Shown here one piece after another: positions 14,731 to 25,425 of a stretch of 50,335 nt of DNA. Location: UHGV virus genome UHGV-1998140. One strand, written 5' to 3'. Positions within the stretch are counted from its first letter, which is position 1, and the number at the start of each line of letters is the position of its first letter. Position numbers and translations under genes: made by a program. The stretch comes from a virus. The notes under the pieces were generated by a model. The model was given only the letters and a program-made list of their open reading frames with translations. It did no database searches and was not told the DNA's origin.

Positions 14731-14760
14731 ATAAAATAGCCACCCGGACCGGAGGTGGCT
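14731..14760 (-). terminator. Terminator-like hairpin downstream of major tail protein gene
   Basis: AGCCACC-9 nt loop-GGTGGCT stem followed by U-rich AUUUUAU on the minus strand. Confidence 0.4.
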
Positions 14761-14781: not shown

Positions 14782-15240
14782 TTATGCCCCGCTGCTGTTG
14801 GCAGTGCCCCAGGTGATTTTGTTCTGCTTTCCCTGCACGGTGATCTGAATGACCTCACTCGCCGGAGCGGTGATTTCGTTCATCTGCCAGCCGGACAGCG
14901 CCAGCAACATCGTCGCCGTCCGCTTGTTCGGTAGTTCAACATACAGCTGGATAGTTTCTCGGGCTTCCGCTGCGTTAAGCAGAGCGGCAAAATCCGTATT
15001 GCTCGGATCATCAATAAAACCCAGCGACTTTTCAGGCCCGTCAGGCAGATCACTGATGGATTGTTTCTGCTTATCAAGCAGCGTAGTGCAGTCGACAAAA
15101 CCTCCCGTCTGCCCCATTGCGCCCAGCGCTTTACAGTTAACCAGCGGCTTCAGAGCCGATGCTGCAGCGCCGGGTTCCCCGTATTTTACGATGGTGCCAG
15201 CAGGCAACATCGCATATTCAGGCGAACTCTTATCAGCCAT
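14782..15240 (-). CDS. Major tail (tube) protein
   Basis: 152 aa, directly upstream of G/G-T, flanked by hairpins. Confidence 0.7.
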   Translation of the reverse strand: MADKSSPEYAMLPAGTIVKYGEPGAAASALKPLVNCKALGAMGQTGGFVDCTTLLDKQKQSISDLPDGPEKSLGFIDDPSNTDFAALLNAAEARETIQLYVELPNKRTATMLLALSGWQMNEITAPASEVIQITVQGKQNKITWGTANSSGA

Positions 15241-16977: not shown

Positions 16978-17048
16978 TAGAAAAAGCCCGCTGTTGCGGG
17001 CCAGAGGTGGTTGAATGTTTTCTTCTGTGCGACCGTGGTCGCACAGAA
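16978..17048 (-). terminator. Tandem hairpins / rho-independent terminator downstream of major capsid gene
   Basis: 11-bp perfect stem TTCTGTGCGAC/GTCGCACAGAA (17023-17048) followed by GCCCGC-tgtt-GCGGGC (16986-17001) and a U-tract on the minus strand. Confidence 0.55.
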
Positions 17049-17059
17049 TACCGGGTCGG

Positions 17060-18352
17060 TTAAAACAGCACTTTAGTCCCGAGTACAAGCCCTTCAGGAT
17101 GGCGGAAGCCAATGTCGTGTTCAGTAATAACTCGGATCAGAGACTGGTTGCGGGAGAACGCTGACACCAGATTGCCATCGGCGTCGATATAAGAGGCCTC
17201 TTTCGAGAAATCGACCTTCATATTGCCGTCTTCACCAATAACCACGTCATTGAAGTCGGCAAAGTAGATCTCGGACTCCTTACCGCCGGTACCCAGATTG
17301 GCAGGAATAGCGCTGGTACGCTGAATCGGGTAGCCCTTCAGCATGCTCTGTGGCCCCTGGGACATTTCCGGATAGACTTTGTTACCGTTGCCATCACGCA
17401 GGCCGTACAGCTTCATGTAAGTACGGTTAGACATGCCCCAGCCGCAGCTGATCATGTTGCTGTTACCGTCCATTGCCATCAGGATGATCTTATCGAGATA
17501 CTCATCAATCGTGTTCAGATTGATTTCAGCAGCTTCCCACGGCAGCAGGCGGTTCCATTCGGTTGCCCGCGCCTTCATACCCGTCGGCGTATCGCCGGTA
17601 CCGTCATCACGCATGAACGCCTTATCTTCGCGAACAGAAATGGCGGTCAGAATATCTTGCAGGACCAGTTGCTCAACGTTAAACCCGGCACGCCCAATCA
17701 GCTGGTTAGAGATTGGCACCATCGCAATCATGGTTTTTGCCGTCAGTTTCACATCATCAAAGCGCGCTTCCGACACTTTGGCATCTTTGTTTTCGCCGGT
17801 ATAACTTGCCGTTGCACCACCGGCCAGGCGCGGCAGCGCCATATTGCCATTAGGCAACGGAATGGAGCGGGCACCCAGCTTACGGATGATGGTACGGTCA
17901 CGCAGTAGCTCAATCACTTCGCTGTGCAGGTTCTGCGGGATGAGAACTCCGCCAGATGATGCGGCAGTGGAGATGGCCATCGATACAGATGGGTCATTCA
18001 GTTCTTCTGCGGCAAACGTTGCCGCGTCCTGCAGATTGCCCGCCCCCGCTGCAACGGCCATGACAAGACGAGTCATCCCGGCACCGGTATATTGCTTCGG
18101 CTCCTGCTTCACAACAATGCCCGGAGCCTGCTGTGTAGCTTTAACCGGTTTCGCAACCACCGCTGCGGCACGTTCAGCAGCTTCCAGTCGTTCCATTTTG
18201 GCGCTGATATCGCTGAACTGCTGCTGCAGACCAGCAAACTCTGTCAGCTGCTCCGCTGTCAGCGTACCGCCATTCGCTTCAATCGTGGCCAGTGCCTGGA
18301 CTTGTTCGTTAATACCCGCACGCTGACGACGCAATTCTTCAATCTGTGGCAT
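17060..18352 (-). CDS. Major capsid protein, HK97 family
   Basis: 430 aa with N-terminal coiled-coil delta-like region; position after prohead protease. Confidence 0.9.
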   Translation of the reverse strand: MPQIEELRRQRAGINEQVQALATIEANGGTLTAEQLTEFAGLQQQFSDISAKMERLEAAERAAAVVAKPVKATQQAPGIVVKQEPKQYTGAGMTRLVMAVAAGAGNLQDAATFAAEELNDPSVSMAISTAASSGGVLIPQNLHSEVIELLRDRTIIRKLGARSIPLPNGNMALPRLAGGATASYTGENKDAKVSEARFDDVKLTAKTMIAMVPISNQLIGRAGFNVEQLVLQDILTAISVREDKAFMRDDGTGDTPTGMKARATEWNRLLPWEAAEINLNTIDEYLDKIILMAMDGNSNMISCGWGMSNRTYMKLYGLRDGNGNKVYPEMSQGPQSMLKGYPIQRTSAIPANLGTGGKESEIYFADFNDVVIGEDGNMKVDFSKEASYIDADGNLVSAFSRNQSLIRVITEHDIGFRHPEGLVLGTKVLF

Positions 18353-18426: not shown

Positions 18427-19347
18427 TTACATTCTGGTTTGCAGGTCCATCGCTGCCGCCTGCAGCTTGATGGAACCGGCTTTTTGAGGCGTTTTGTACT
18501 TCGCCGCAATAGCATTGATCGCCGACTGAGGGTCTGAAACTTCATCGGCCAGACCGGCAGAAATAGCACTGGCACCGAAAAAAGTCCCTGCCTGTGTGCC
18601 AATAACGGCCTGTAAATCTAAATCTCGATATTCAGCAACCGAAGTCGTGAATGTCTGGTACATATCGTCAAGTATCTTGTCGTACATTGCGAGAGAGGCT
18701 TCACTCAGTGGCTCATGAGAAGTACCGTTATTTTTGTTATCTCCACGATACATGGAGGTAAATTTTACACCGATATTCTCTTCCATTTTCGATGTATCCA
18801 GGTGTTCCATTATCACCCCGATAGACCCCACGCCGCTGGTCTGGCTAATAACGATTTTATTGCAGGCAGAGGCAATAAAATAAGCCGCTGAAAACGCGTT
18901 GAAGTTAACAATCGCGGTAATGGATTTCGTCTCTCGCGACTGATAGATGTAATCTGCCAGTTCTTTACACCCGGAGGCGTAACCCCCACCGGAATTTATA
19001 TCCAGCACGATTTCGCTGATGGATGAATCGTTTAACGCCGCGTGCAACTGACTGCGAATACGCTCATAGCTGGTTAGCTCCGTACAGGCTTGCGTTATTT
19101 GTCCCCGACGCGGCACCAGTAATCCATGTACAGGAATAACAGCCACGCCACCGGCTGGCTGGACCTGCTCAGGAGTCGGGGTGCCATCCGGATTGAGTGC
19201 CATCGTGAAAACCGGGTCCGTCACTGTTCCCTGAATGCGCGGGAGCAACACGGCCTTTACGGCATCCATCGTTTGCTGCGTGACGTAATGCGGGACGCCA
19301 AACACTTGGGCGGTAAGATGCGGCAGATTTAGGTTTGTGATATTCAT
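18427..19347 (-). CDS. Prohead maturation protease (S49/ClpP-like)
   Basis: 306 aa between portal and capsid genes; serine-protease-like core. Confidence 0.8.
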   Translation of the reverse strand: MNITNLNLPHLTAQVFGVPHYVTQQTMDAVKAVLLPRIQGTVTDPVFTMALNPDGTPTPEQVQPAGGVAVIPVHGLLVPRRGQITQACTELTSYERIRSQLHAALNDSSISEIVLDINSGGGYASGCKELADYIYQSRETKSITAIVNFNAFSAAYFIASACNKIVISQTSGVGSIGVIMEHLDTSKMEENIGVKFTSMYRGDNKNNGTSHEPLSEASLAMYDKILDDMYQTFTTSVAEYRDLDLQAVIGTQAGTFFGASAISAGLADEVSDPQSAINAIAAKYKTPQKAGSIKLQAAAMDLQTRM

Positions 19348-19360
19348 GAGTTTTGCCTAT

Positions 19361-19384
19361 AAAAAAACCCGCTTTCGCGGGTTT
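19361..19384 (-). terminator. Rho-independent terminator after moron gene
   Basis: AAACCCGC-gaaa-GCGGGTTT stem followed by 7 U on minus strand, 24 nt after the stop at 19408. Confidence 0.6.
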
Positions 19385-19407
19385 AATAGATATCGGAGGT
19401 GAGGCGC

Positions 19408-19755
19408 TTATTCTATAGAGGTAGATTGTCGTCCTGTGAGAGTGAACTCTACATTCACATCGTCGAAGCCCCTCGAATCTTTCCTGGGATAGTCCATTTC
19501 TTTGCAAAACATTTTGAAGCCAAGCTGAGCAAAGTTTTTTTCCTGTTCTGCTGGAAAATATTCGGAGAAAGATACAGCAAGGCACTCGTGATTTTTGAAC
19601 TTCGTCCGCTCGACGGGCCATCCTACACTCTTGCAACGCCGGGTGAGATCTTCTTCATCGGCACCCAGCAGAAATACTCTAAATGCCACCTGGCTGTATG
19701 TTCTAATACTGCCAGTCGGCTTCATTGGCTGATTAGGATCATAATTTGAGAACAT
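19408..19755 (-). CDS. Hypothetical protein (moron between portal and protease)
   Basis: 115 aa, AT-richer than neighbours, own downstream terminator, no recognisable motif. Confidence 0.5.
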   Translation of the reverse strand: MFSNYDPNQPMKPTGSIRTYSQVAFRVFLLGADEEDLTRRCKSVGWPVERTKFKNHECLAVSFSEYFPAEQEKNFAQLGFKMFCKEMDYPRKDSRGFDDVNVEFTLTGRQSTSIE

Positions 19756-19847
19756 TTTTGCACCTGAAATGGCCTATGAATTATGCAGGTATATTATCAC
19801 TAAAATTGATGAAAGGGTGCCTGTAGCCAGCAAGACAACCACCTTAA

Positions 19848-21110
19848 TTAACGAGCCAGAATCGCTTCAATCTTAGCCAGTTGTTTTGCCGTCGGAATTT
19901 TATCGCCTGGCAGGATTTGATTGCTGTCGACCATGTTCAGTGGTGTCAGATATCTGTCCCCGCCCTCAATCGGCGGCAGGTTTTCCATGCGGCGAATATC
20001 GTTGGTCGATAACCAGCCCCACTGACGACCCAGCGCATATGACTCATAGCGCGATTTCTGGTCGCCACGCAGTAAGCCGGAAACGTTGAATTCGATATAC
20101 AAGTCGCGGCGTTCGCTGGCCAGCAATAAATCACGCTGCAGTGCCCCTTCATGGCGTTTCAGCCAGGCGAGGAGCGTATACATCACGAACTGCAGACCCT
20201 GATGCTCGATGTTGTTATTGGTCGCTTTCGCAAGCATTTGCACCATGTGTGGCGGGATTTTGTAGAGCCGACACACTTCCTCCACGCCCCACTGGCGCGA
20301 TTGCAGCAGCTGTGCTTTCTCGTTGTCCTGCGACATCTGCTTGTAGCTCATTCCTTCTTGCAGCAGCGCCACAGAAAAGGCATTACGCATACCAGAATAT
20401 CGGTCAGTCCATTTAGCCAGTAGCTGGTCTATCTTCTCCTGGCTCTTGATTGCCGGGGCGGCCTGTGGACGCTCGATAACGCCGCTCATCGTTGTTCCGC
20501 GCCGGAATGTGGCAGATGCATGCTCCTCCACTGCCAGATTCAGCCCGAGTACATCTGCGTTCGTCTGAATCGGTGAACTGCCGATATAGCCATCCAGAGA
20601 AAAGACTTTCACATGGTGCACCATGCGCATCGGTAACGTTTCACCGATGTCCGGGATTTCATAATAGGGCATCCCGTCCGGGCCTTTCAGAACAATGACC
20701 TTTTTCGGGTTAATTGGGATGAGTTCTTTTGGGTAGCCTCTACCGTCACGGTCGATGATCGAGTAGCAATTGCCCTCCAGCCCCAGCAACCCCTGCTGCT
20801 GCTCAAAGTACTCAAATGAAGTGTCTTTTTTGTTTGGCTGAGAATGAATCAGGTCATAAATCGGGTGGTCTGTCGCACGTTGCCGCCCACCATTTTTATC
20901 TCGTCGATAGAGTTCGACAGGCAGCTGCGCGACGGACTCCGCCAGGAGGGTTACGCACGCACGAACAGCAGAAAGTGCAAGCGCCGTTTCCGGCGTAATC
21001 ATGACACCGGCTTTACTGTGACTTGAACGGACACCACCCAGCATTGCTTCCCAGAATCCGCCACCTGATACCGACCGCTTTTTACCTTCAAACATCTGGG
21101 GAATAAACAT
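19848..21110 (-). CDS. Portal protein, HK97 family
   Basis: 420 aa directly downstream of terminase large subunit. Confidence 0.9.
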   Translation of the reverse strand: MFIPQMFEGKKRSVSGGGFWEAMLGGVRSSHSKAGVMITPETALALSAVRACVTLLAESVAQLPVELYRRDKNGGRQRATDHPIYDLIHSQPNKKDTSFEYFEQQQGLLGLEGNCYSIIDRDGRGYPKELIPINPKKVIVLKGPDGMPYYEIPDIGETLPMRMVHHVKVFSLDGYIGSSPIQTNADVLGLNLAVEEHASATFRRGTTMSGVIERPQAAPAIKSQEKIDQLLAKWTDRYSGMRNAFSVALLQEGMSYKQMSQDNEKAQLLQSRQWGVEEVCRLYKIPPHMVQMLAKATNNNIEHQGLQFVMYTLLAWLKRHEGALQRDLLLASERRDLYIEFNVSGLLRGDQKSRYESYALGRQWGWLSTNDIRRMENLPPIEGGDRYLTPLNMVDSNQILPGDKIPTAKQLAKIEAILAR

Positions 21111-21289
21111 TATTTCTCCCCGCTATTTTTTGCGCTGGCGGATACCGAGCGCGCGATTAAAAAAGACCAAAGCAGACAGAGTATTCCGCCTGTGATAAAC
21201 CCCGCTGCAGGTAATAAAAGCCAGGCTCCGGTAGAAACCAATAAAGCCCCGGCAAGGCCAATAATGAAACTCAGAATTGTGATTAGCAC
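21110..21289 (-). CDS. Small membrane protein (59 aa, 2 predicted TM helices)
   Basis: GTG start at 21289 with GAGGAAG upstream, overlaps terL stop; its TAA overlaps the portal ATG (TAATG); not in ORF track because <60 aa. Confidence 0.45.
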   Translation of the reverse strand: MLITILSFIIGLAGALLVSTGAWLLLPAAGFITGGILCLLWSFLIARSVSASAKNSGEK

Positions 21290-23004
21290 GCTACGTCTTC
21301 CTCATCATAGATAGATTTGATGACTGCGCTGTTCAACATGGCGCGCCCTATCCCCATCATTAAACCAACCGCACCATCAATCTTGTTTTGTTTCCCCTCC
21401 TTTGTCGGACGGACAATATCGTCGCTGCCCGGCAAATACCGACCTACAACGTTCTGGATGCACCAGTTCATGATGGGATTTCCGTCATGATGGAATCGCC
21501 CCGACGCCAGTGCAGCTTCAATCTCTCTCATGGGGTCGCTCATATGGGTGAAGTTCTGTCTGATTTCGACGGGTTCCAGTCCCTCTTCCTCAAGCAGATG
21601 GCGCAAGGAAGTGGCACCATAAGGATCGATAGGACACTGGGCGATTTTCACGTTCTGACGTAACTGCAGGATGGATTCGAAAATCAGCCGATAATCTACT
21701 TCTGCGCCCTCAGTTGGAATTAAAACGCCCTGTCCCACAAAGGACTGATAACGTTCAGAGGTATGCTTAAGCTTCGGGTCGACAGAATAGATGGTGTCTT
21801 CAGGCACCCAGAACATAGGGCCTACGCAGTAGAAATGGGTAATACCTTCTATATCGCGACGAAAAACAGGAATAACGGCGTTAAGATCGACCTTTGACGC
21901 TAGATCTATTCCCAGCCAGCATTCCTCATCGGCAAAATCAGACAATTTCAGACTCTTGTCAGCAGCAGCCATCCATTTCTGTAAATCGTAAAAGACTGTT
22001 TTTGCGCTAACCCAACGATTAAAATGCTTGGTCAGGATCTTGTTGGTCTGACTGGGGTTCGATATCGCCAGTAACTGTTTTGCGCGAAGAAAGTGCTCTT
22101 TTACCGATATCCCATAATTGGGATTGGCTTTAATGAGCGCTTCCGGCTGAGTCCAGTCATCATCATCATCCAGACCATAGATGATGCCGAAAATGCCCTC
22201 ATTCTCTTCCCCATTGCGGGTTTTGCGCAGGATCTCCACCACCTGTTCCCGCTTCTCATAGCACGGCGATGTAATGTCATAACCGGCTGTCGTGATGATG
22301 AGCGTAATGGGTTGCTCGCGAGCCCCCATCCCTGTCGTCATCGTGGTATACAGGGCATCGGTAATATGTTCGTGGTATTCGTCGATAATGGCGCATGACG
22401 GCGAATCACCGTCACCGGGATCGCCAATCACGGGTGCAAATATGGAGCCATCCGGGCGAGTCATTTTTTTTGCCCAGGGCTTTATAGAAAATTTCTGCCG
22501 CAATGCGGGCAGCTTTTTCACCATCAACAACGCCGGAGCAAACACTTTCCAGGCCTGCTTTTCGGTCGTGGCGCCGCAGTACACTTCCGCACCATGTTCA
22601 CCGTCAGCGCAGAACATATAATTGCCAACGGCAGCGGCAATTGCTGATTTGCCGTTCTTTCTAGGAACTTCGATATAGATCTCAGTGAACCGCCGCAGGC
22701 CACTTTTTTTATTTACCCAGCCAAACGGAACACCCAGGGCAAACTTTTGCCAGGGTTCAAATTCTATCCTGAGTTTTCGGCGGGCCCATTCCCCTGCGGT
22801 ATGTGGCATTTTTTGTGCAAAACGAAGAAATCGCTCTGCCTTATTTTTATCGAACCGGTAAGGCCAGTTCGGATCCTTCGCGCGTTCCAGGTCATCAAGA
22901 TGTCGCTTGCAGGCAAGAATAGTTAACTGACATGCCAGAATCTTCCCGCCAACGATATCCCGTGCATACTGGTTCGCCGCATTGACGTTCGGATATGTGG
23001 CCAT
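21283..23004 (-). CDS. Terminase large subunit
   Basis: 573 aa, Walker A-like PRKNGKS, start overlaps small-subunit stop. Confidence 0.9.
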   Translation of the reverse strand: MATYPNVNAANQYARDIVGGKILACQLTILACKRHLDDLERAKDPNWPYRFDKNKAERFLRFAQKMPHTAGEWARRKLRIEFEPWQKFALGVPFGWVNKKSGLRRFTEIYIEVPRKNGKSAIAAAVGNYMFCADGEHGAEVYCGATTEKQAWKVFAPALLMVKKLPALRQKFSIKPWAKKMTRPDGSIFAPVIGDPGDGDSPSCAIIDEYHEHITDALYTTMTTGMGAREQPITLIITTAGYDITSPCYEKREQVVEILRKTRNGEENEGIFGIIYGLDDDDDWTQPEALIKANPNYGISVKEHFLRAKQLLAISNPSQTNKILTKHFNRWVSAKTVFYDLQKWMAAADKSLKLSDFADEECWLGIDLASKVDLNAVIPVFRRDIEGITHFYCVGPMFWVPEDTIYSVDPKLKHTSERYQSFVGQGVLIPTEGAEVDYRLIFESILQLRQNVKIAQCPIDPYGATSLRHLLEEEGLEPVEIRQNFTHMSDPMREIEAALASGRFHHDGNPIMNWCIQNVVGRYLPGSDDIVRPTKEGKQNKIDGAVGLMMGIGRAMLNSAVIKSIYDEEDVAC

Positions 23005-23438
23005 CAGTCAAACTCATCAAATTCATTCCCGTCATCGTCCTGATCATTTTTGCCGCTGGTCATTCGGATACGGCTGAGCGGATCTAACCCCAGTAGCGAG
23101 CCCAGACGGGCTATCTGGGAAACAGAGTCATTTCTGACGTTTACGGCAGGATGTTTTTTTAACCCTCCCATTTCGCTTTCAGTTGTCAGCCCGTTAGCCA
23201 GTAATTTTTCGGCTTCGAGCATCAGATGGAAGGCGTTGCAGTAAGCCAGAAGTAAAGGGGCATCTTCAAGCTCAAAAACGCCTCTTTCGATCAGGATTTT
23301 ACTTTGAGTCTTCCATATTCTTATAGCCGCCTCCCCCATCAACTCAGCCGGGGGCGCGATTCGGGTCAGTTTACTTTTTTGCCCGGTGGGTAAAACGGGT
23401 TTTCTTCCCCCTCCAGACGATCTAATACCAGCAGCCAT
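23004..23438 (-). CDS. Terminase small subunit (P27-like)
   Basis: 144 aa with acidic C-terminal tail, strong RBS, immediately upstream of terL. Confidence 0.7.
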   Translation of the reverse strand: MAAGIRSSGGGRKPVLPTGQKSKLTRIAPPAELMGEAAIRIWKTQSKILIERGVFELEDAPLLLAYCNAFHLMLEAEKLLANGLTTESEMGGLKKHPAVNVRNDSVSQIARLGSLLGLDPLSRIRMTSGKNDQDDDGNEFDEFD

Positions 23439-24249: not shown

Positions 24250-24546
24250 TTAATGGCTCCGGTTACGGTTGCGATTTTTATTGCGGTTACGCTGATGGCG
24301 CGGTGCGGTTTCGGCTGGCAGGTGCTCGCCTTCGAACGCTTGCGCTGGCTCTTGCGGTTGCGGTTGCGGTTGAGCGGGAACCAGTCCCTCGGGAATTTCA
24401 CCACCTACCTCAAACTTGAGATGCGGTTCTTTCCCCAAGAAATGGCTGAAGTTCAGGCCCGATAGTCCTGCATTGAGCATCGAGATCCCCTCGACATCAA
24501 CGGTAACGAGTTGGCCATCAACGTATTCAATTTTTAAATTCTTCAT
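24250..24546 (-). CDS. Hypothetical protein with PQ repeat and basic C-terminal tail
   Basis: ATG at 24546 overlaps HNH stop (ATGA); contains (GCGGTT)3 hexamer repeat encoding PQPQPQ and a C-terminal RNRNKNRNRNR tail. Confidence 0.5.
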   Translation of the reverse strand: MKNLKIEYVDGQLVTVDVEGISMLNAGLSGLNFSHFLGKEPHLKFEVGGEIPEGLVPAQPQPQPQEPAQAFEGEHLPAETAPRHQRNRNKNRNRNRSH

Positions 24547-24905
24547 CGTGTTCTCTCTGTTGCGGTTTTCGTTCTGTGGCACGGCCAGCACAACGATTCC
24601 AGATTGTAATTGTCATCAGTACCGCCGTGGGCTTTAGGAATGATGTGGTCGACGCTGGTAGCTTTTGTGGCGATACCGTGGCGTCGGCAGTTCTGGCAAA
24701 GGTATTTGTCGCGCACGAGTATCTGGGCACGAATGATTTCCCAGGAACGACCGTATCCGCGTTGCTGTCGGGTTTTTCCGGTCTGATAGTTACGCCAGCC
24801 ATCGCCAGTGTGTTGCTGCCGATGGATCTCGCAGTATCTAGTGGCGTCATTCGTCACTGCCGCGCATCCTCTGTGCCGGCAAGGTCGTTTAGCTCGTGGT
24901 GGCAT
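24543..24905 (-). CDS. HNH endonuclease (terminase-associated, HK97 gp74-like position)
   Basis: Cys/His HNH core (DHIIPKAHGG ... CWPCH); start placed at ATG 24905 (MPPRAKRPC) with GAGGA upstream. Confidence 0.8.
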   Translation of the reverse strand: MPPRAKRPCRHRGCAAVTNDATRYCEIHRQQHTGDGWRNYQTGKTRQQRGYGRSWEIIRAQILVRDKYLCQNCRRHGIATKATSVDHIIPKAHGGTDDNYNLESLCWPCHRTKTATERTR

Positions 24906-25053
24906 ACACATCCTCAAGCATGAATTTGGAGAGAGTAAAAGCGGCACTGTCGATGGGGAACTCTGAAACTGGCAACGATGCGAATGACAAATCGTCATAC
25001 GAAATCACCACCAGCTTCCCTCCTACGTATTCAATTTTTAAGCTCTTCATCAT
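24889..25053 (-). CDS. Small ORF, N-terminal paralog of 24250-24546 product
   Basis: 54 aa MMKSLKIEYVGGKLVV... shares its first ~22 residues with MKNLKIEYVDGQLVTV...; weak RBS. Confidence 0.35.
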   Translation of the reverse strand: MMKSLKIEYVGGKLVVISYDDLSFASLPVSEFPIDSAAFTLSKFMLEDVYATTS

Positions 25054-25224
25054 GTGGCATCACGAATACAAAAAGCCCCGCAGATGCGAGGCTACTGGTT
25101 ATACATCAGGGTGTTATTGATAGAGAGCAGCGTGTAAGGTTATCGCTCAGCCGCCTGTGGTGGGACACAGGTAGATATTGTAATTGCAGAGGGATAGCTG
25201 ATTAGCTCTGCTTAAGGAATAGAA

Positions 25225-25425
25225 ATGATTAAAAAGAATATGCACCTTCAAATGGAATCAAATGCCCAAACAATCGACGAATTGAACAAAGAAATTGGGC
25301 AACTGAAATGTGTCGTTGGTTTCTTAATGACTCAATTACCACCGCAATCTAGGCAGGCTGTCATCAATAATCTTGAGGAGTTTGGACTTGATGAGTCAGT
25401 TAAGGAATTTACTCAGTTCCTTTGA
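25225..25425 (+). CDS. Hypothetical small protein
   Basis: 66 aa, AAGGAA RBS 6 nt upstream of ATG, low-GC region. Confidence 0.45.
   Translation: MIKKNMHLQMESNAQTIDELNKEIGQLKCVVGFLMTQLPPQSRQAVINNLEEFGLDESVKEFTQFL

What the first reader, a model, noticed from the sequence alone, without database searches (positions are those of the whole stretch)
19361..19755. Autonomous moron with its own terminator inside the head gene cluster
A 115-aa ORF of unknown function sits between portal and protease with AT-richer composition and a strong intrinsic terminator (8-bp stem plus 7 U) immediately downstream. It looks like an inserted, independently expressed cassette, possibly lysogen-expressed.
Basis: seen in the sequence. 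Interest (0 to 1): 0.5.

Follow-up and report, generated by a model that had tools for sequence, protein, structure and literature searches.

The report
Accessory gene cassette between portal and protease
A 500-base cassette carrying a small gene of unknown function, with its own transcription stop signal, has been inserted between two essential head genes of a Klebsiella prophage; this is a well-known kind of phage add-on ("moron") and it is ordinary, although this protein family has never been described.

Summary
A 115-aa ORF (19408..19755, minus strand) lies between the portal gene and the S49 prohead protease gene. It has 44.5% GC against 52% for the window. A strong intrinsic terminator follows it (19384..19361).

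It is an insertion. About 95% of related head modules, with portal proteins at least 88% identical, have only about 40 nt at this junction.

The gene is real. A 45%-identical, gap-free, equal-length homologue sits at the same junction in Citrobacter prophages. Codon-position conservation is typical of coding sequence, and the antisense ORF is not conserved.

Between the two lineages the coding sequence has diverged to saturation. The 46 nt upstream of the ATG are still 80% identical; they hold an extended -10-like TGATAATAT and a Shine-Dalgarno sequence. The terminator stem is also kept, with GAAA and UUCG loops. The expression signals are therefore under selection.

An unrelated membrane protein occupies the same junction in other relatives, so the site is a recurrent cargo slot.

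The protein is soluble (13.4 kDa). It has no hit in Pfam, PHROGs, PADLOC, NCBIfam, PDB, or phage and plasmid genomes. Its low-confidence model shows only a generic alpha+beta fold.

Verdict: a genuine moron encoding an ORFan. Expression in the lysogen and the protein's function remain untested.

The parts
19348..19847 (-). Whole inserted segment (500 bp, GC 0.438). It replaces the roughly 36-40 nt portal-protease spacer found in relatives.
   Evidence: Alignment with the empty sites of phiKO2, KpLi5 and ST846; gap statistics; composition.
19408..19755 (-). Moron ORF: 115 aa, 13.4 kDa, pI 5.9, soluble, no TM segment; ORFan family limited to K. oxytoca and Citrobacter prophages.
19756..19801 (-). 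Conserved upstream block, 37/46 nt identical to the Citrobacter allele. Probable promoter core plus 5'UTR.
19791..19799 (-). Candidate extended -10 element TGaTAATAT (TGaTAACAT in Citrobacter). Conservation begins two bases upstream of it, at 19801. Other -10 candidates: CATAAT 19785..19780 and CATAGG 19778..19773.
   Evidence: Read from the sequence. The motif alone is not enriched in the window. The promoter scan finds GTGATA-16-TATAGT only in L094 and nothing in the window.
19761..19765 (-). Shine-Dalgarno-like AGGTG, 5 nt upstream of the ATG; conserved in both alleles.
19361..19384 (-). Intrinsic terminator: stem AAACCCGC/GCGGGTTT, GAAA loop, T7 run. The stem is conserved in Citrobacter, where the loop is UUCG.
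19848..21110 (-). Portal protein gene (upstream neighbour). It ends ...ILAR*, with the same last 15 nt in both moron-bearing lineages.
18427..19347 (-). S49-family prohead protease gene (downstream neighbour). The N-terminus is MN(I/L)xNLNLP in moron-bearing lineages and MTTKLINLP in empty-site relatives.
31845..32693 (-). Q-type antiterminator gene on the same strand, upstream of the lysis and head genes. It is the expected means of reading through the moron terminator during lytic growth.
   Evidence: PF06323, E 1e-34. Read-through is inferred from established lambda Q biology.

Best explanation
This is a classical phage moron. A 500-bp, AT-richer cassette was inserted once into the portal-protease junction of an HK97/phiKO2-type head module of a lambdoid Klebsiella oxytoca prophage. 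It carries a real gene for a soluble 13.4-kDa alpha+beta protein, a conserved promoter/5'UTR-like leader and a strong rho-independent terminator.

Proposed mechanism, with the status of each step:
1. In the lysogen the gene is transcribed from its own weak, -35-independent promoter (extended -10 TGATAATAT). This is inferred.
2. The transcript stops at the hairpin, so no transcription runs into the protease and capsid genes. The terminator is shown at sequence level; its activity is inferred.
3. After induction, Q-modified RNA polymerase from the late promoter reads through the terminator, so head-gene expression is not interrupted and the gene is also made late. This is inferred from the presence of a Q gene and from lambda biology.
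4. The protein is not a virion building block. It most likely acts in the cytoplasm by binding a partner through its conserved N- and C-terminal segments, in phage-phage or phage-host conflict (exclusion or defence against other phages, or counter-defence). This would explain a protein divergence about 8 times that of the portal and capsid. This step is an inference and the specific activity is unknown.

Rough probabilities: inserted accessory cassette 0.9; own promoter or lysogen expression 0.5; role in defence or exclusion 0.35.
For: Insertion: 78 of 80 and 73 of 80 related head modules have a 42-58 nt junction. phiKO2, KpLi5 and ST846 annotations show the portal directly followed by the protease.

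Real gene: a 45%-identical, gap-free, 115-aa homologue lies at the same junction in Citrobacter. Identity by codon position is 0.61/0.66/0.40, and the antisense ORF has 9 stops in the homologue.

Foreign composition: GC 0.445 (0.405 in Citrobacter) against 0.50-0.54 for the neighbours.

Selected expression signals: the upstream 46 nt are 80% identical (P about 2e-8 against 40% neutral identity). The terminator stem is identical, with two different stable tetraloops. Synonymous sites of the ORF and its neighbours are saturated or close to it.

Same cassette in mosaic backbones: the K. oxytoca copies are nearly identical (4 variable sites) although the tail modules differ.

Junction reused by unrelated cargo: a multi-TM protein, phrog_18437, sits there in 6 contigs.

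Q antiterminator on the same strand.

Precedents: morons inside late operons that are expressed from prophages and protect against other phages (PMC10884400, PMC11364771; moron criteria as used in PMC3851460).
Against: No promoter passed the sigma-70 scan in the window. The extended -10-like motif is not statistically unusual on its own, and the -35 region is poor and not conserved. The conserved leader could be a 5'UTR or translation signal used only on the read-through late transcript. The gene is on the same strand as the late operon, so it needs no promoter of its own to be expressed in lytic growth. No function can be assigned: Pfam, PHROGs, PADLOC, NCBIfam, PDB sequences, 50,697 phage genomes and 72,556 plasmids give no hit. 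The structure model is of low confidence (pLDDT 59), with only generic fold matches. One natural copy is frameshifted (L013), so the gene is dispensable.
Confidence: 0.72

Rival explanations
1. A late-operon accessory gene without autonomous expression. The gene is made only during lytic growth from the Q-dependent late transcript, for example as a counter-defence factor or an assembly helper. The conserved leader is a ribosome-binding or mRNA-stability element. The hairpin tunes the portal/protease expression ratio or stabilises the upstream mRNA.
For: The gene has the same orientation as the late operon and a Q gene is present. No consensus sigma-70 promoter was found in the window. Other strong hairpins follow the capsid and tail-tube genes of the same operon, and phiKO2 annotators marked terminators after its protease and capsid genes. 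The alternative cargo at this junction (L103) has no terminator and overlaps the protease start, so it is operon-integrated.
Against: Conservation of the upstream block starts two bases upstream of a TG-n-TAAyAT element and extends about 25 nt upstream of the Shine-Dalgarno sequence, which is more than a ribosome-binding site needs. The terminator arrived with the cassette and is absent from empty sites.
Confidence: 0.2
2. A capsid-targeted internal or ejection protein, analogous to the T4 internal proteins. The conserved, apparently disordered N-terminal peptide (MxSNxxPNQPMKxTG) would act as a procapsid-targeting or protease-cleavage signal. The fast-evolving body would be delivered with the DNA to neutralise a host defence.
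For: The gene sits between the portal and prohead protease genes. The first 15 residues are 10/15 identical between alleles that are 45% identical overall, yet they are modelled with pLDDT below 50. The body of the protein diverges quickly.
Against: No sequence or fold similarity to any known internal protein. The own terminator, the low GC and the rarity among close relatives fit a moron better. There are no virion proteomics. The analogy rests on my recollection of T4 biology, not on a test.
Confidence: 0.06
3. A spurious ORF or a decaying remnant with no function.
For: It is an ORFan with no database annotation. One copy is frameshifted in an A7 run (L013).
Against: The frame is intact and of equal length in two lineages whose synonymous sites are saturated. 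The codon-position pattern is typical of purifying selection. Five other frames are closed in the homologue. Synonymous changes occur in the conserved N-terminal codons.
Confidence: 0.02

Closest known systems
Morons of lambdoid/HK97-like phages (Juhala et al. 2000 definition; e.g. HK97 gp15, lambda bor/lom)
   Same: An extra gene between two genes that are adjacent in relatives. Deviant (lower) GC. An own terminator and promoter-like leader. It lies inside the Q-dependent late region.
   Different: The protein is unrelated to any characterised moron product. It is soluble, whereas HK97 gp15, Bor and Lom are membrane or envelope proteins. Promoter activity and lysogen expression are not shown.
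Tab (tail assembly blocker) moron of Pseudomonas phage JBD26 (PMC10884400) and Tai/Ati systems (PMC11364771)
   Same: A small protein (83 aa for Tab) without recognisable domains, encoded inside the packaging/morphogenesis late operon of a prophage. In those cases it is expressed constitutively and protects the lysogen against other phages.
   Different: No sequence similarity (tblastn against phage genomes gave no hit). Tab is on the opposite strand and is paired with an adjacent anti-Tab gene. Here the gene is co-oriented with the operon and has no partner ORF. No phenotype is known.
phrog_18437 membrane protein at the same portal-protease junction (L102-L104, L177-L182)
   Same: Same insertion slot in the same head-module family, and by coincidence the same length (115 aa).
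   Different: Unrelated sequence with multiple TM segments. It has no terminator, overlaps the protease start codon and has a 33-nt leader, so it is integrated into the operon rather than autonomous.
T4 internal proteins (IPI-III) in polymorphic loci
   Same: Small, rapidly diverging proteins with a conserved N-terminal peptide, encoded among head genes.
   Different: The resemblance rests on recollection only. No homology, no evidence of packaging, and a different phage type.

Membership tests
Moron (accessory cassette in a phage late region) | Present between two genes that are directly adjacent in closely related phages | tested here: met
   78/80 and 73/80 related loci have a 42-58 nt junction. 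phiKO2, KpLi5 and ST846 annotations agree.
Moron (accessory cassette in a phage late region) | Nucleotide composition different from the neighbouring genes | tested here: met
   GC 0.445 (GC3 0.457) against portal 0.53 (0.594) and capsid 0.543 (0.596). The Citrobacter allele is 0.405.
Moron (accessory cassette in a phage late region) | Own factor-independent terminator downstream | tested here: met
   Hairpin plus T-run at 19384..19361, -14 kcal/mol. The stem is conserved in the Citrobacter allele with a different tetraloop. It is absent from empty sites. Activity was not assayed.
Moron (accessory cassette in a phage late region) | Own promoter upstream | tested here: inconclusive
   The window has no hit in the sigma-70 scan. 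L094 has GTGATA-16-TATAGT. A conserved TGaTAAyAT extended -10-like element sits at the 5' end of an 80%-conserved 46-nt block, but the motif alone is not above chance.
Moron (accessory cassette in a phage late region) | Expressed from the repressed prophage | not testable with these tools
   Needs RNA-seq, 5'-RACE or a reporter assay in a lysogen.
Core head-module structural or assembly protein | Conserved across head modules of the same type | tested here: not met
   Absent from about 95% of modules with a portal at least 88% identical. No hit in 50,697 phage genomes.
Portal-adjacent minor head protein (SPP1 gp7 / Mu F-like) | Sequence match to the family profile | tested here: not met
   No Pfam or PHROG hit at E up to 0.1-1. 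At 115 aa it is much shorter than what I recall for that family.
Known anti-phage defence proteins (PADLOC set) | Profile match to a defence-system component | tested here: not met
   No PADLOC hit at E up to 1. That database dates from 2023 and does not cover all systems.
Tab/anti-Tab or Tai/Ati assembly-interference systems | Homology to Tab/Tai and an adjacent cognate inhibitor gene in the late operon | tested here: not met
   No tblastn hit in phage genomes. No extra ORF lies between the portal and protease genes besides the moron. A functional analogy is not excluded.
Free-standing homing endonuclease | HNH, GIY-YIG or LAGLIDADG nuclease domain | tested here: not met
   No Pfam or NCBIfam hit.
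Ferredoxin-like alpha+beta sandwich fold (ABM / ACT / uS10-like) | Confident structural superposition | tested here: inconclusive

The most novel reading that the evidence does not exclude
The cassette encodes a previously unrecognised single-protein weapon of inter-phage conflict: a prophage-expressed defence or exclusion factor, or a counter-defence factor. Its conserved terminal peptides would dock onto a conserved target, possibly a head-assembly component of competing phages. Its variable body would evolve in an arms race. The portal-protease junction would then be a dedicated hot spot for such cargo in phiKO2/HK97-type head modules.
Probability: 0.3. Interest if true: 0.55.

Novelty: new member of a known kind. 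Interest (0 to 1): 0.3.

Why it matters
Morons are the main route by which temperate phages carry fitness, virulence and defence genes. Several recently described defences (Tab, Tai) turned out to be small domain-less proteins hidden in late operons. This cassette is a clean, well-delimited candidate of that sort in Klebsiella oxytoca and Citrobacter prophages. It has two divergent alleles and an alternative cargo at the same slot, which makes a simple knockout or plasmid-expression test against a phage panel feasible. On present evidence it remains an ordinary moron with an ORFan product.

Tried and rejected
1. Sequence searches for function found nothing: Pfam, PHROGs, PADLOC and NCBIfam, a profile search of PDB sequences, and tblastn against phage and plasmid collections. 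Megablast against E. coli genomes also found nothing.

2. Wider homology searches were also unproductive. The word-indexed search of 5.8 billion proteins, with a single sequence and with a profile, found only two allele groups. So did the exhaustive HMMER scan of 1.84 billion representatives.

3. The 5491-aa hit P0004 is an artefact of many weak repeats and was rejected.

4. The GTDB genome scans by protein pattern and by the conserved leader DNA pattern found nothing. The IMG/VR DNA-pattern scan only recovered the same two alleles.

6. Rfam had nothing meaningful in 19250-19950.

7. The idea of an SD-sequestering hairpin in the leader (ACCUG...CAGGU) is not supported: z = +0.5 in the window and -1.15 in L094.

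8. The antisense ORF 19399..19749 (+) is a shadow ORF and was rejected.

9. The leader motif does not recur elsewhere in the window, so there is no sign of a shared operator.

Full report
**Observation.** The window region 17-23.5 kb is a minus-strand HK97/phiKO2-type head module. It runs, in order, through these genes:
- small terminase, 23004..23438
- TerL, 21283..23004
- a 59-aa membrane protein, 21110..21289
- portal, 19848..21110 (PF04860)
- the ORF in question, 19408..19755
- S49 prohead protease, 18427..19347 (PF01343)
- major capsid protein, 17060..18352 (PF05065)

The ORF has an ATG start preceded by AGGTG, and encodes 115 aa. Twenty-three bases after its stop codon lies AAACCCGC-GAAA-GCGGGTTT followed by further T's, seven T in all (19384..19361). 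This is one of the four best terminator-like sites on the coding strand of 14-26 kb, at -14 kcal/mol. GC is 0.445 for the ORF and 0.438 for the 500-bp intergenic-plus-ORF segment, against 0.50-0.54 for the neighbours and 0.52 for the window.

**It is an insertion.** The portal gene is 82-89% identical in DNA to Klebsiella phage phiKO2 and its relatives, but the match stops near the portal's end. In phiKO2, vB_KpnS_KpLi5 and ST846-OXA48phi9.1 the portal gene is followed after about 36 nt by the protease gene. The alignment shows a clean 460-nt gap in those phages.

Among 80 IMG/VR loci whose portal is at least 88% identical, 78 have a 42-58 nt junction. Only two, with portals about 100% identical, carry the ORF. 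A second set of 80 loci anchored on the protease gave 73 empty junctions, the same 2 with this ORF, 3 with a different insert and one frameshifted portal. This is the opposite of 'universal conservation as a structural head component'.

**The gene is real.** Exact or near-exact copies occur in about 60 contigs of the Klebsiella oxytoca complex. In every locus examined it lies between the portal and S49 protease genes, although upstream genes and tail modules differ.

An exhaustive HMMER scan of 1.84 billion representative proteins found one further relative. It is a 115-aa protein of Citrobacter farmeri/amalonaticus, 45% identical with no gaps. It lies at the same junction.

Comparing the window with that locus:

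| Protein | Identity | dN |
|---|---|---|
| Portal | 90% | 0.06 |
| Capsid | 90% | 0.06 |
| Protease | 75% | 0.15 |
| Moron | 45% | 0.48 |

Synonymous sites of the moron and portal are saturated. Moron identity by codon position is 0.61/0.66/0.40. The sense frame alone is open in both alleles, and the antisense ORF seen in the window has nine stops in the homologue. It is therefore a protein-coding gene under purifying selection that evolves about eight times faster than its structural neighbours.

**The expression signals are conserved.** Against that saturated background, the 46 nt before the ATG (19801..19756) are 37/46 identical (P about 2e-8 at 40% neutral identity). The sequence between the portal stop and this block cannot be aligned.

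The block starts at AGTGATAATAT, which holds an extended -10-like TG-n-TAATAT (TAACAT in Citrobacter). It also contains CATAAT/AATAAT and the AGGTG Shine-Dalgarno sequence. In the Citrobacter copy the scan also calls GTGATA-16-TATAGT.

No candidate reaches the scan threshold in the window, and the short motif alone is not above chance. The promoter therefore remains an inference from conservation.

Downstream, ATTAAACCCGC....GCGGGTTTTTT is conserved, with GAAA in one allele and UUCG in the other. Both are stable tetraloops.

Both lineages also share junction marks that empty sites lack. The portal ends ILAR* with an identical last 15 nt, and the protease starts MN(I/L)xNLNLP instead of MTTKLINLP. 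This points to a single ancestral insertion, later spread or lost by recombination among head modules. The K. oxytoca copies of the cassette differ at only four sites in 12 sequences.

**Context.** The window is a lambdoid prophage. A Q antiterminator (31845..32693, PF06323), two holins and an endolysin lie upstream on the same strand. By established lambda biology, Q-modified polymerase ignores intrinsic terminators, so the moron's terminator need not interrupt late expression. Strong hairpins also follow the capsid gene (17002..16985) and the gene at 14782..15240 (hairpin 14760..14738). The phiKO2 annotators marked terminators after its protease and capsid genes.

**The junction is a recurrent cargo slot.** In nine loci from six distinct contigs (L102-L104, L177-L182) the same junction holds an unrelated 115-aa multi-TM protein (phrog_18437, unknown function). 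It has a 33-nt leader and no terminator, and it overlaps the protease start.

**What the protein is.** It is 13.4 kDa with pI 5.9 and GRAVY -0.69, and has no hydrophobic segment. Conserved parts are the N-terminal MxSNxxPNQPMKxTG, two cysteines (C41, C58), the segment around YxPAxQEKxF, and the C-terminal VEFxLTGxxSxxIE. Residues 84-99 are variable.

There is no hit in Pfam, PHROGs, PADLOC, NCBIfam, PDB sequences, 50,697 phage genomes, 72,556 plasmids or E. coli genomes.

**Interpretation.** Every feature of a moron that the sequence can test is met; promoter activity and lysogenic expression remain open. The best-supported mechanism has three parts. The prophage expresses the gene autonomously at a low level, and its own hairpin terminates the transcript. 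Q-dependent read-through occurs during lytic growth. The product is a cytoplasmic accessory protein acting in phage-phage or phage-host conflict.

The last part rests on the fast divergence with conserved termini, on the dispensability of the gene (one frameshifted copy, L013), and on precedents. Those precedents are Tab, an 83-aa moron between the terminase genes that blocks tail assembly of invading phages (PMC10884400), and Tai/Ati (PMC11364771). There is no homology to either and no partner gene, so this is an analogy, not membership.

The main rival is late-only expression as part of the operon (about 0.2). A T4-IP-like packaged protein is a long shot (about 0.06). A spurious ORF is excluded.

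**Verdict.** The finding is correct and the interpretation essentially right, but the object is an ordinary representative of a well-known class that carries an uncharacterised ORFan. Interest 0.3; novelty: new member of a known kind.

Noticed in passing
window 29553..29735 (+) and 29792..30205 (+): A HicA-like 60-aa ORF followed by a HicB-like antitoxin (PF15919, E 9e-34). They are on the strand opposite to the late genes, between the Q/methylase genes and the holins. This looks like a second moron-like cassette, a toxin-antitoxin pair.
   Followed up: partly
window 30233..31309 (-), 33619..35592 (-), 35546..36433 (-): Three DNA methyltransferase genes (N6_N4_Mtase, a 657-aa protein with a C-5 cytosine methylase domain, and Dam) surround the Q gene. 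A DUF968 protein lies at 32564..33622. This is probably an anti-restriction arsenal.
   Followed up: no
L103 2654..3001 (also L102, L104, L177-L182): An unrelated 115-aa multi-TM protein (phrog_18437, unknown function) occupies the same portal-protease junction in other relatives. It has no terminator and overlaps the protease start codon.
   Followed up: yes
L001 (phiKO2), L002, L003: portal-protease spacer: Empty junctions carry a short hairpin CCCGC-(c/a)gc-GCGGG without a T-run, about 10 nt after the portal stop. The core of its stem is the same as the moron terminator's core (CCCGC/GCGGG). It is unclear whether the terminator was built on a resident hairpin, whether empty sites are deletion scars, or whether this is chance.
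   Followed up: partly
L013 6001..6300 (window equivalent about 19539..19545): One K. oxytoca copy has a 1-nt deletion in the A7 run inside the ORF, giving a 99-aa frameshifted product (P0002). This is either a pseudogene or a slippage-prone site.
   Followed up: partly
L119 1700..2964: The portal gene is split into 308-aa and 113-aa ORFs, by a frameshift or a sequencing error, in one IMG/VR relative.
   Followed up: no
window 17002..16985 (-), 25093..25074 (-), 14760..14738 (-): Three further strong terminator-like hairpins lie on the late-gene strand: one after the capsid gene, one just downstream of the short ORF 25189..25353 (−) and about 75 nt upstream of the HNH gene (24543..24998), and one after the ORF at 14782..15240. 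Overall, terminator-like sites number 26 against 12.4 +/- 3.7 expected in 14-26 kb.
   Followed up: no
window 21110..21289 (-): A 59-aa two-TM membrane protein lies between TerL and the portal gene. It is conserved in phiKO2 (gp3, 'membrane protein') and, unlike the moron, is a fixed part of this head module.
   Followed up: no
window 18427..19347 (-) versus relatives: The protease is much more mosaic than the portal. Most relatives with 89-94% identical portals have proteases only about 75% identical, with intermediate alleles at 82-86%. A recombination boundary therefore lies at or near the portal-protease junction.
   Followed up: partly
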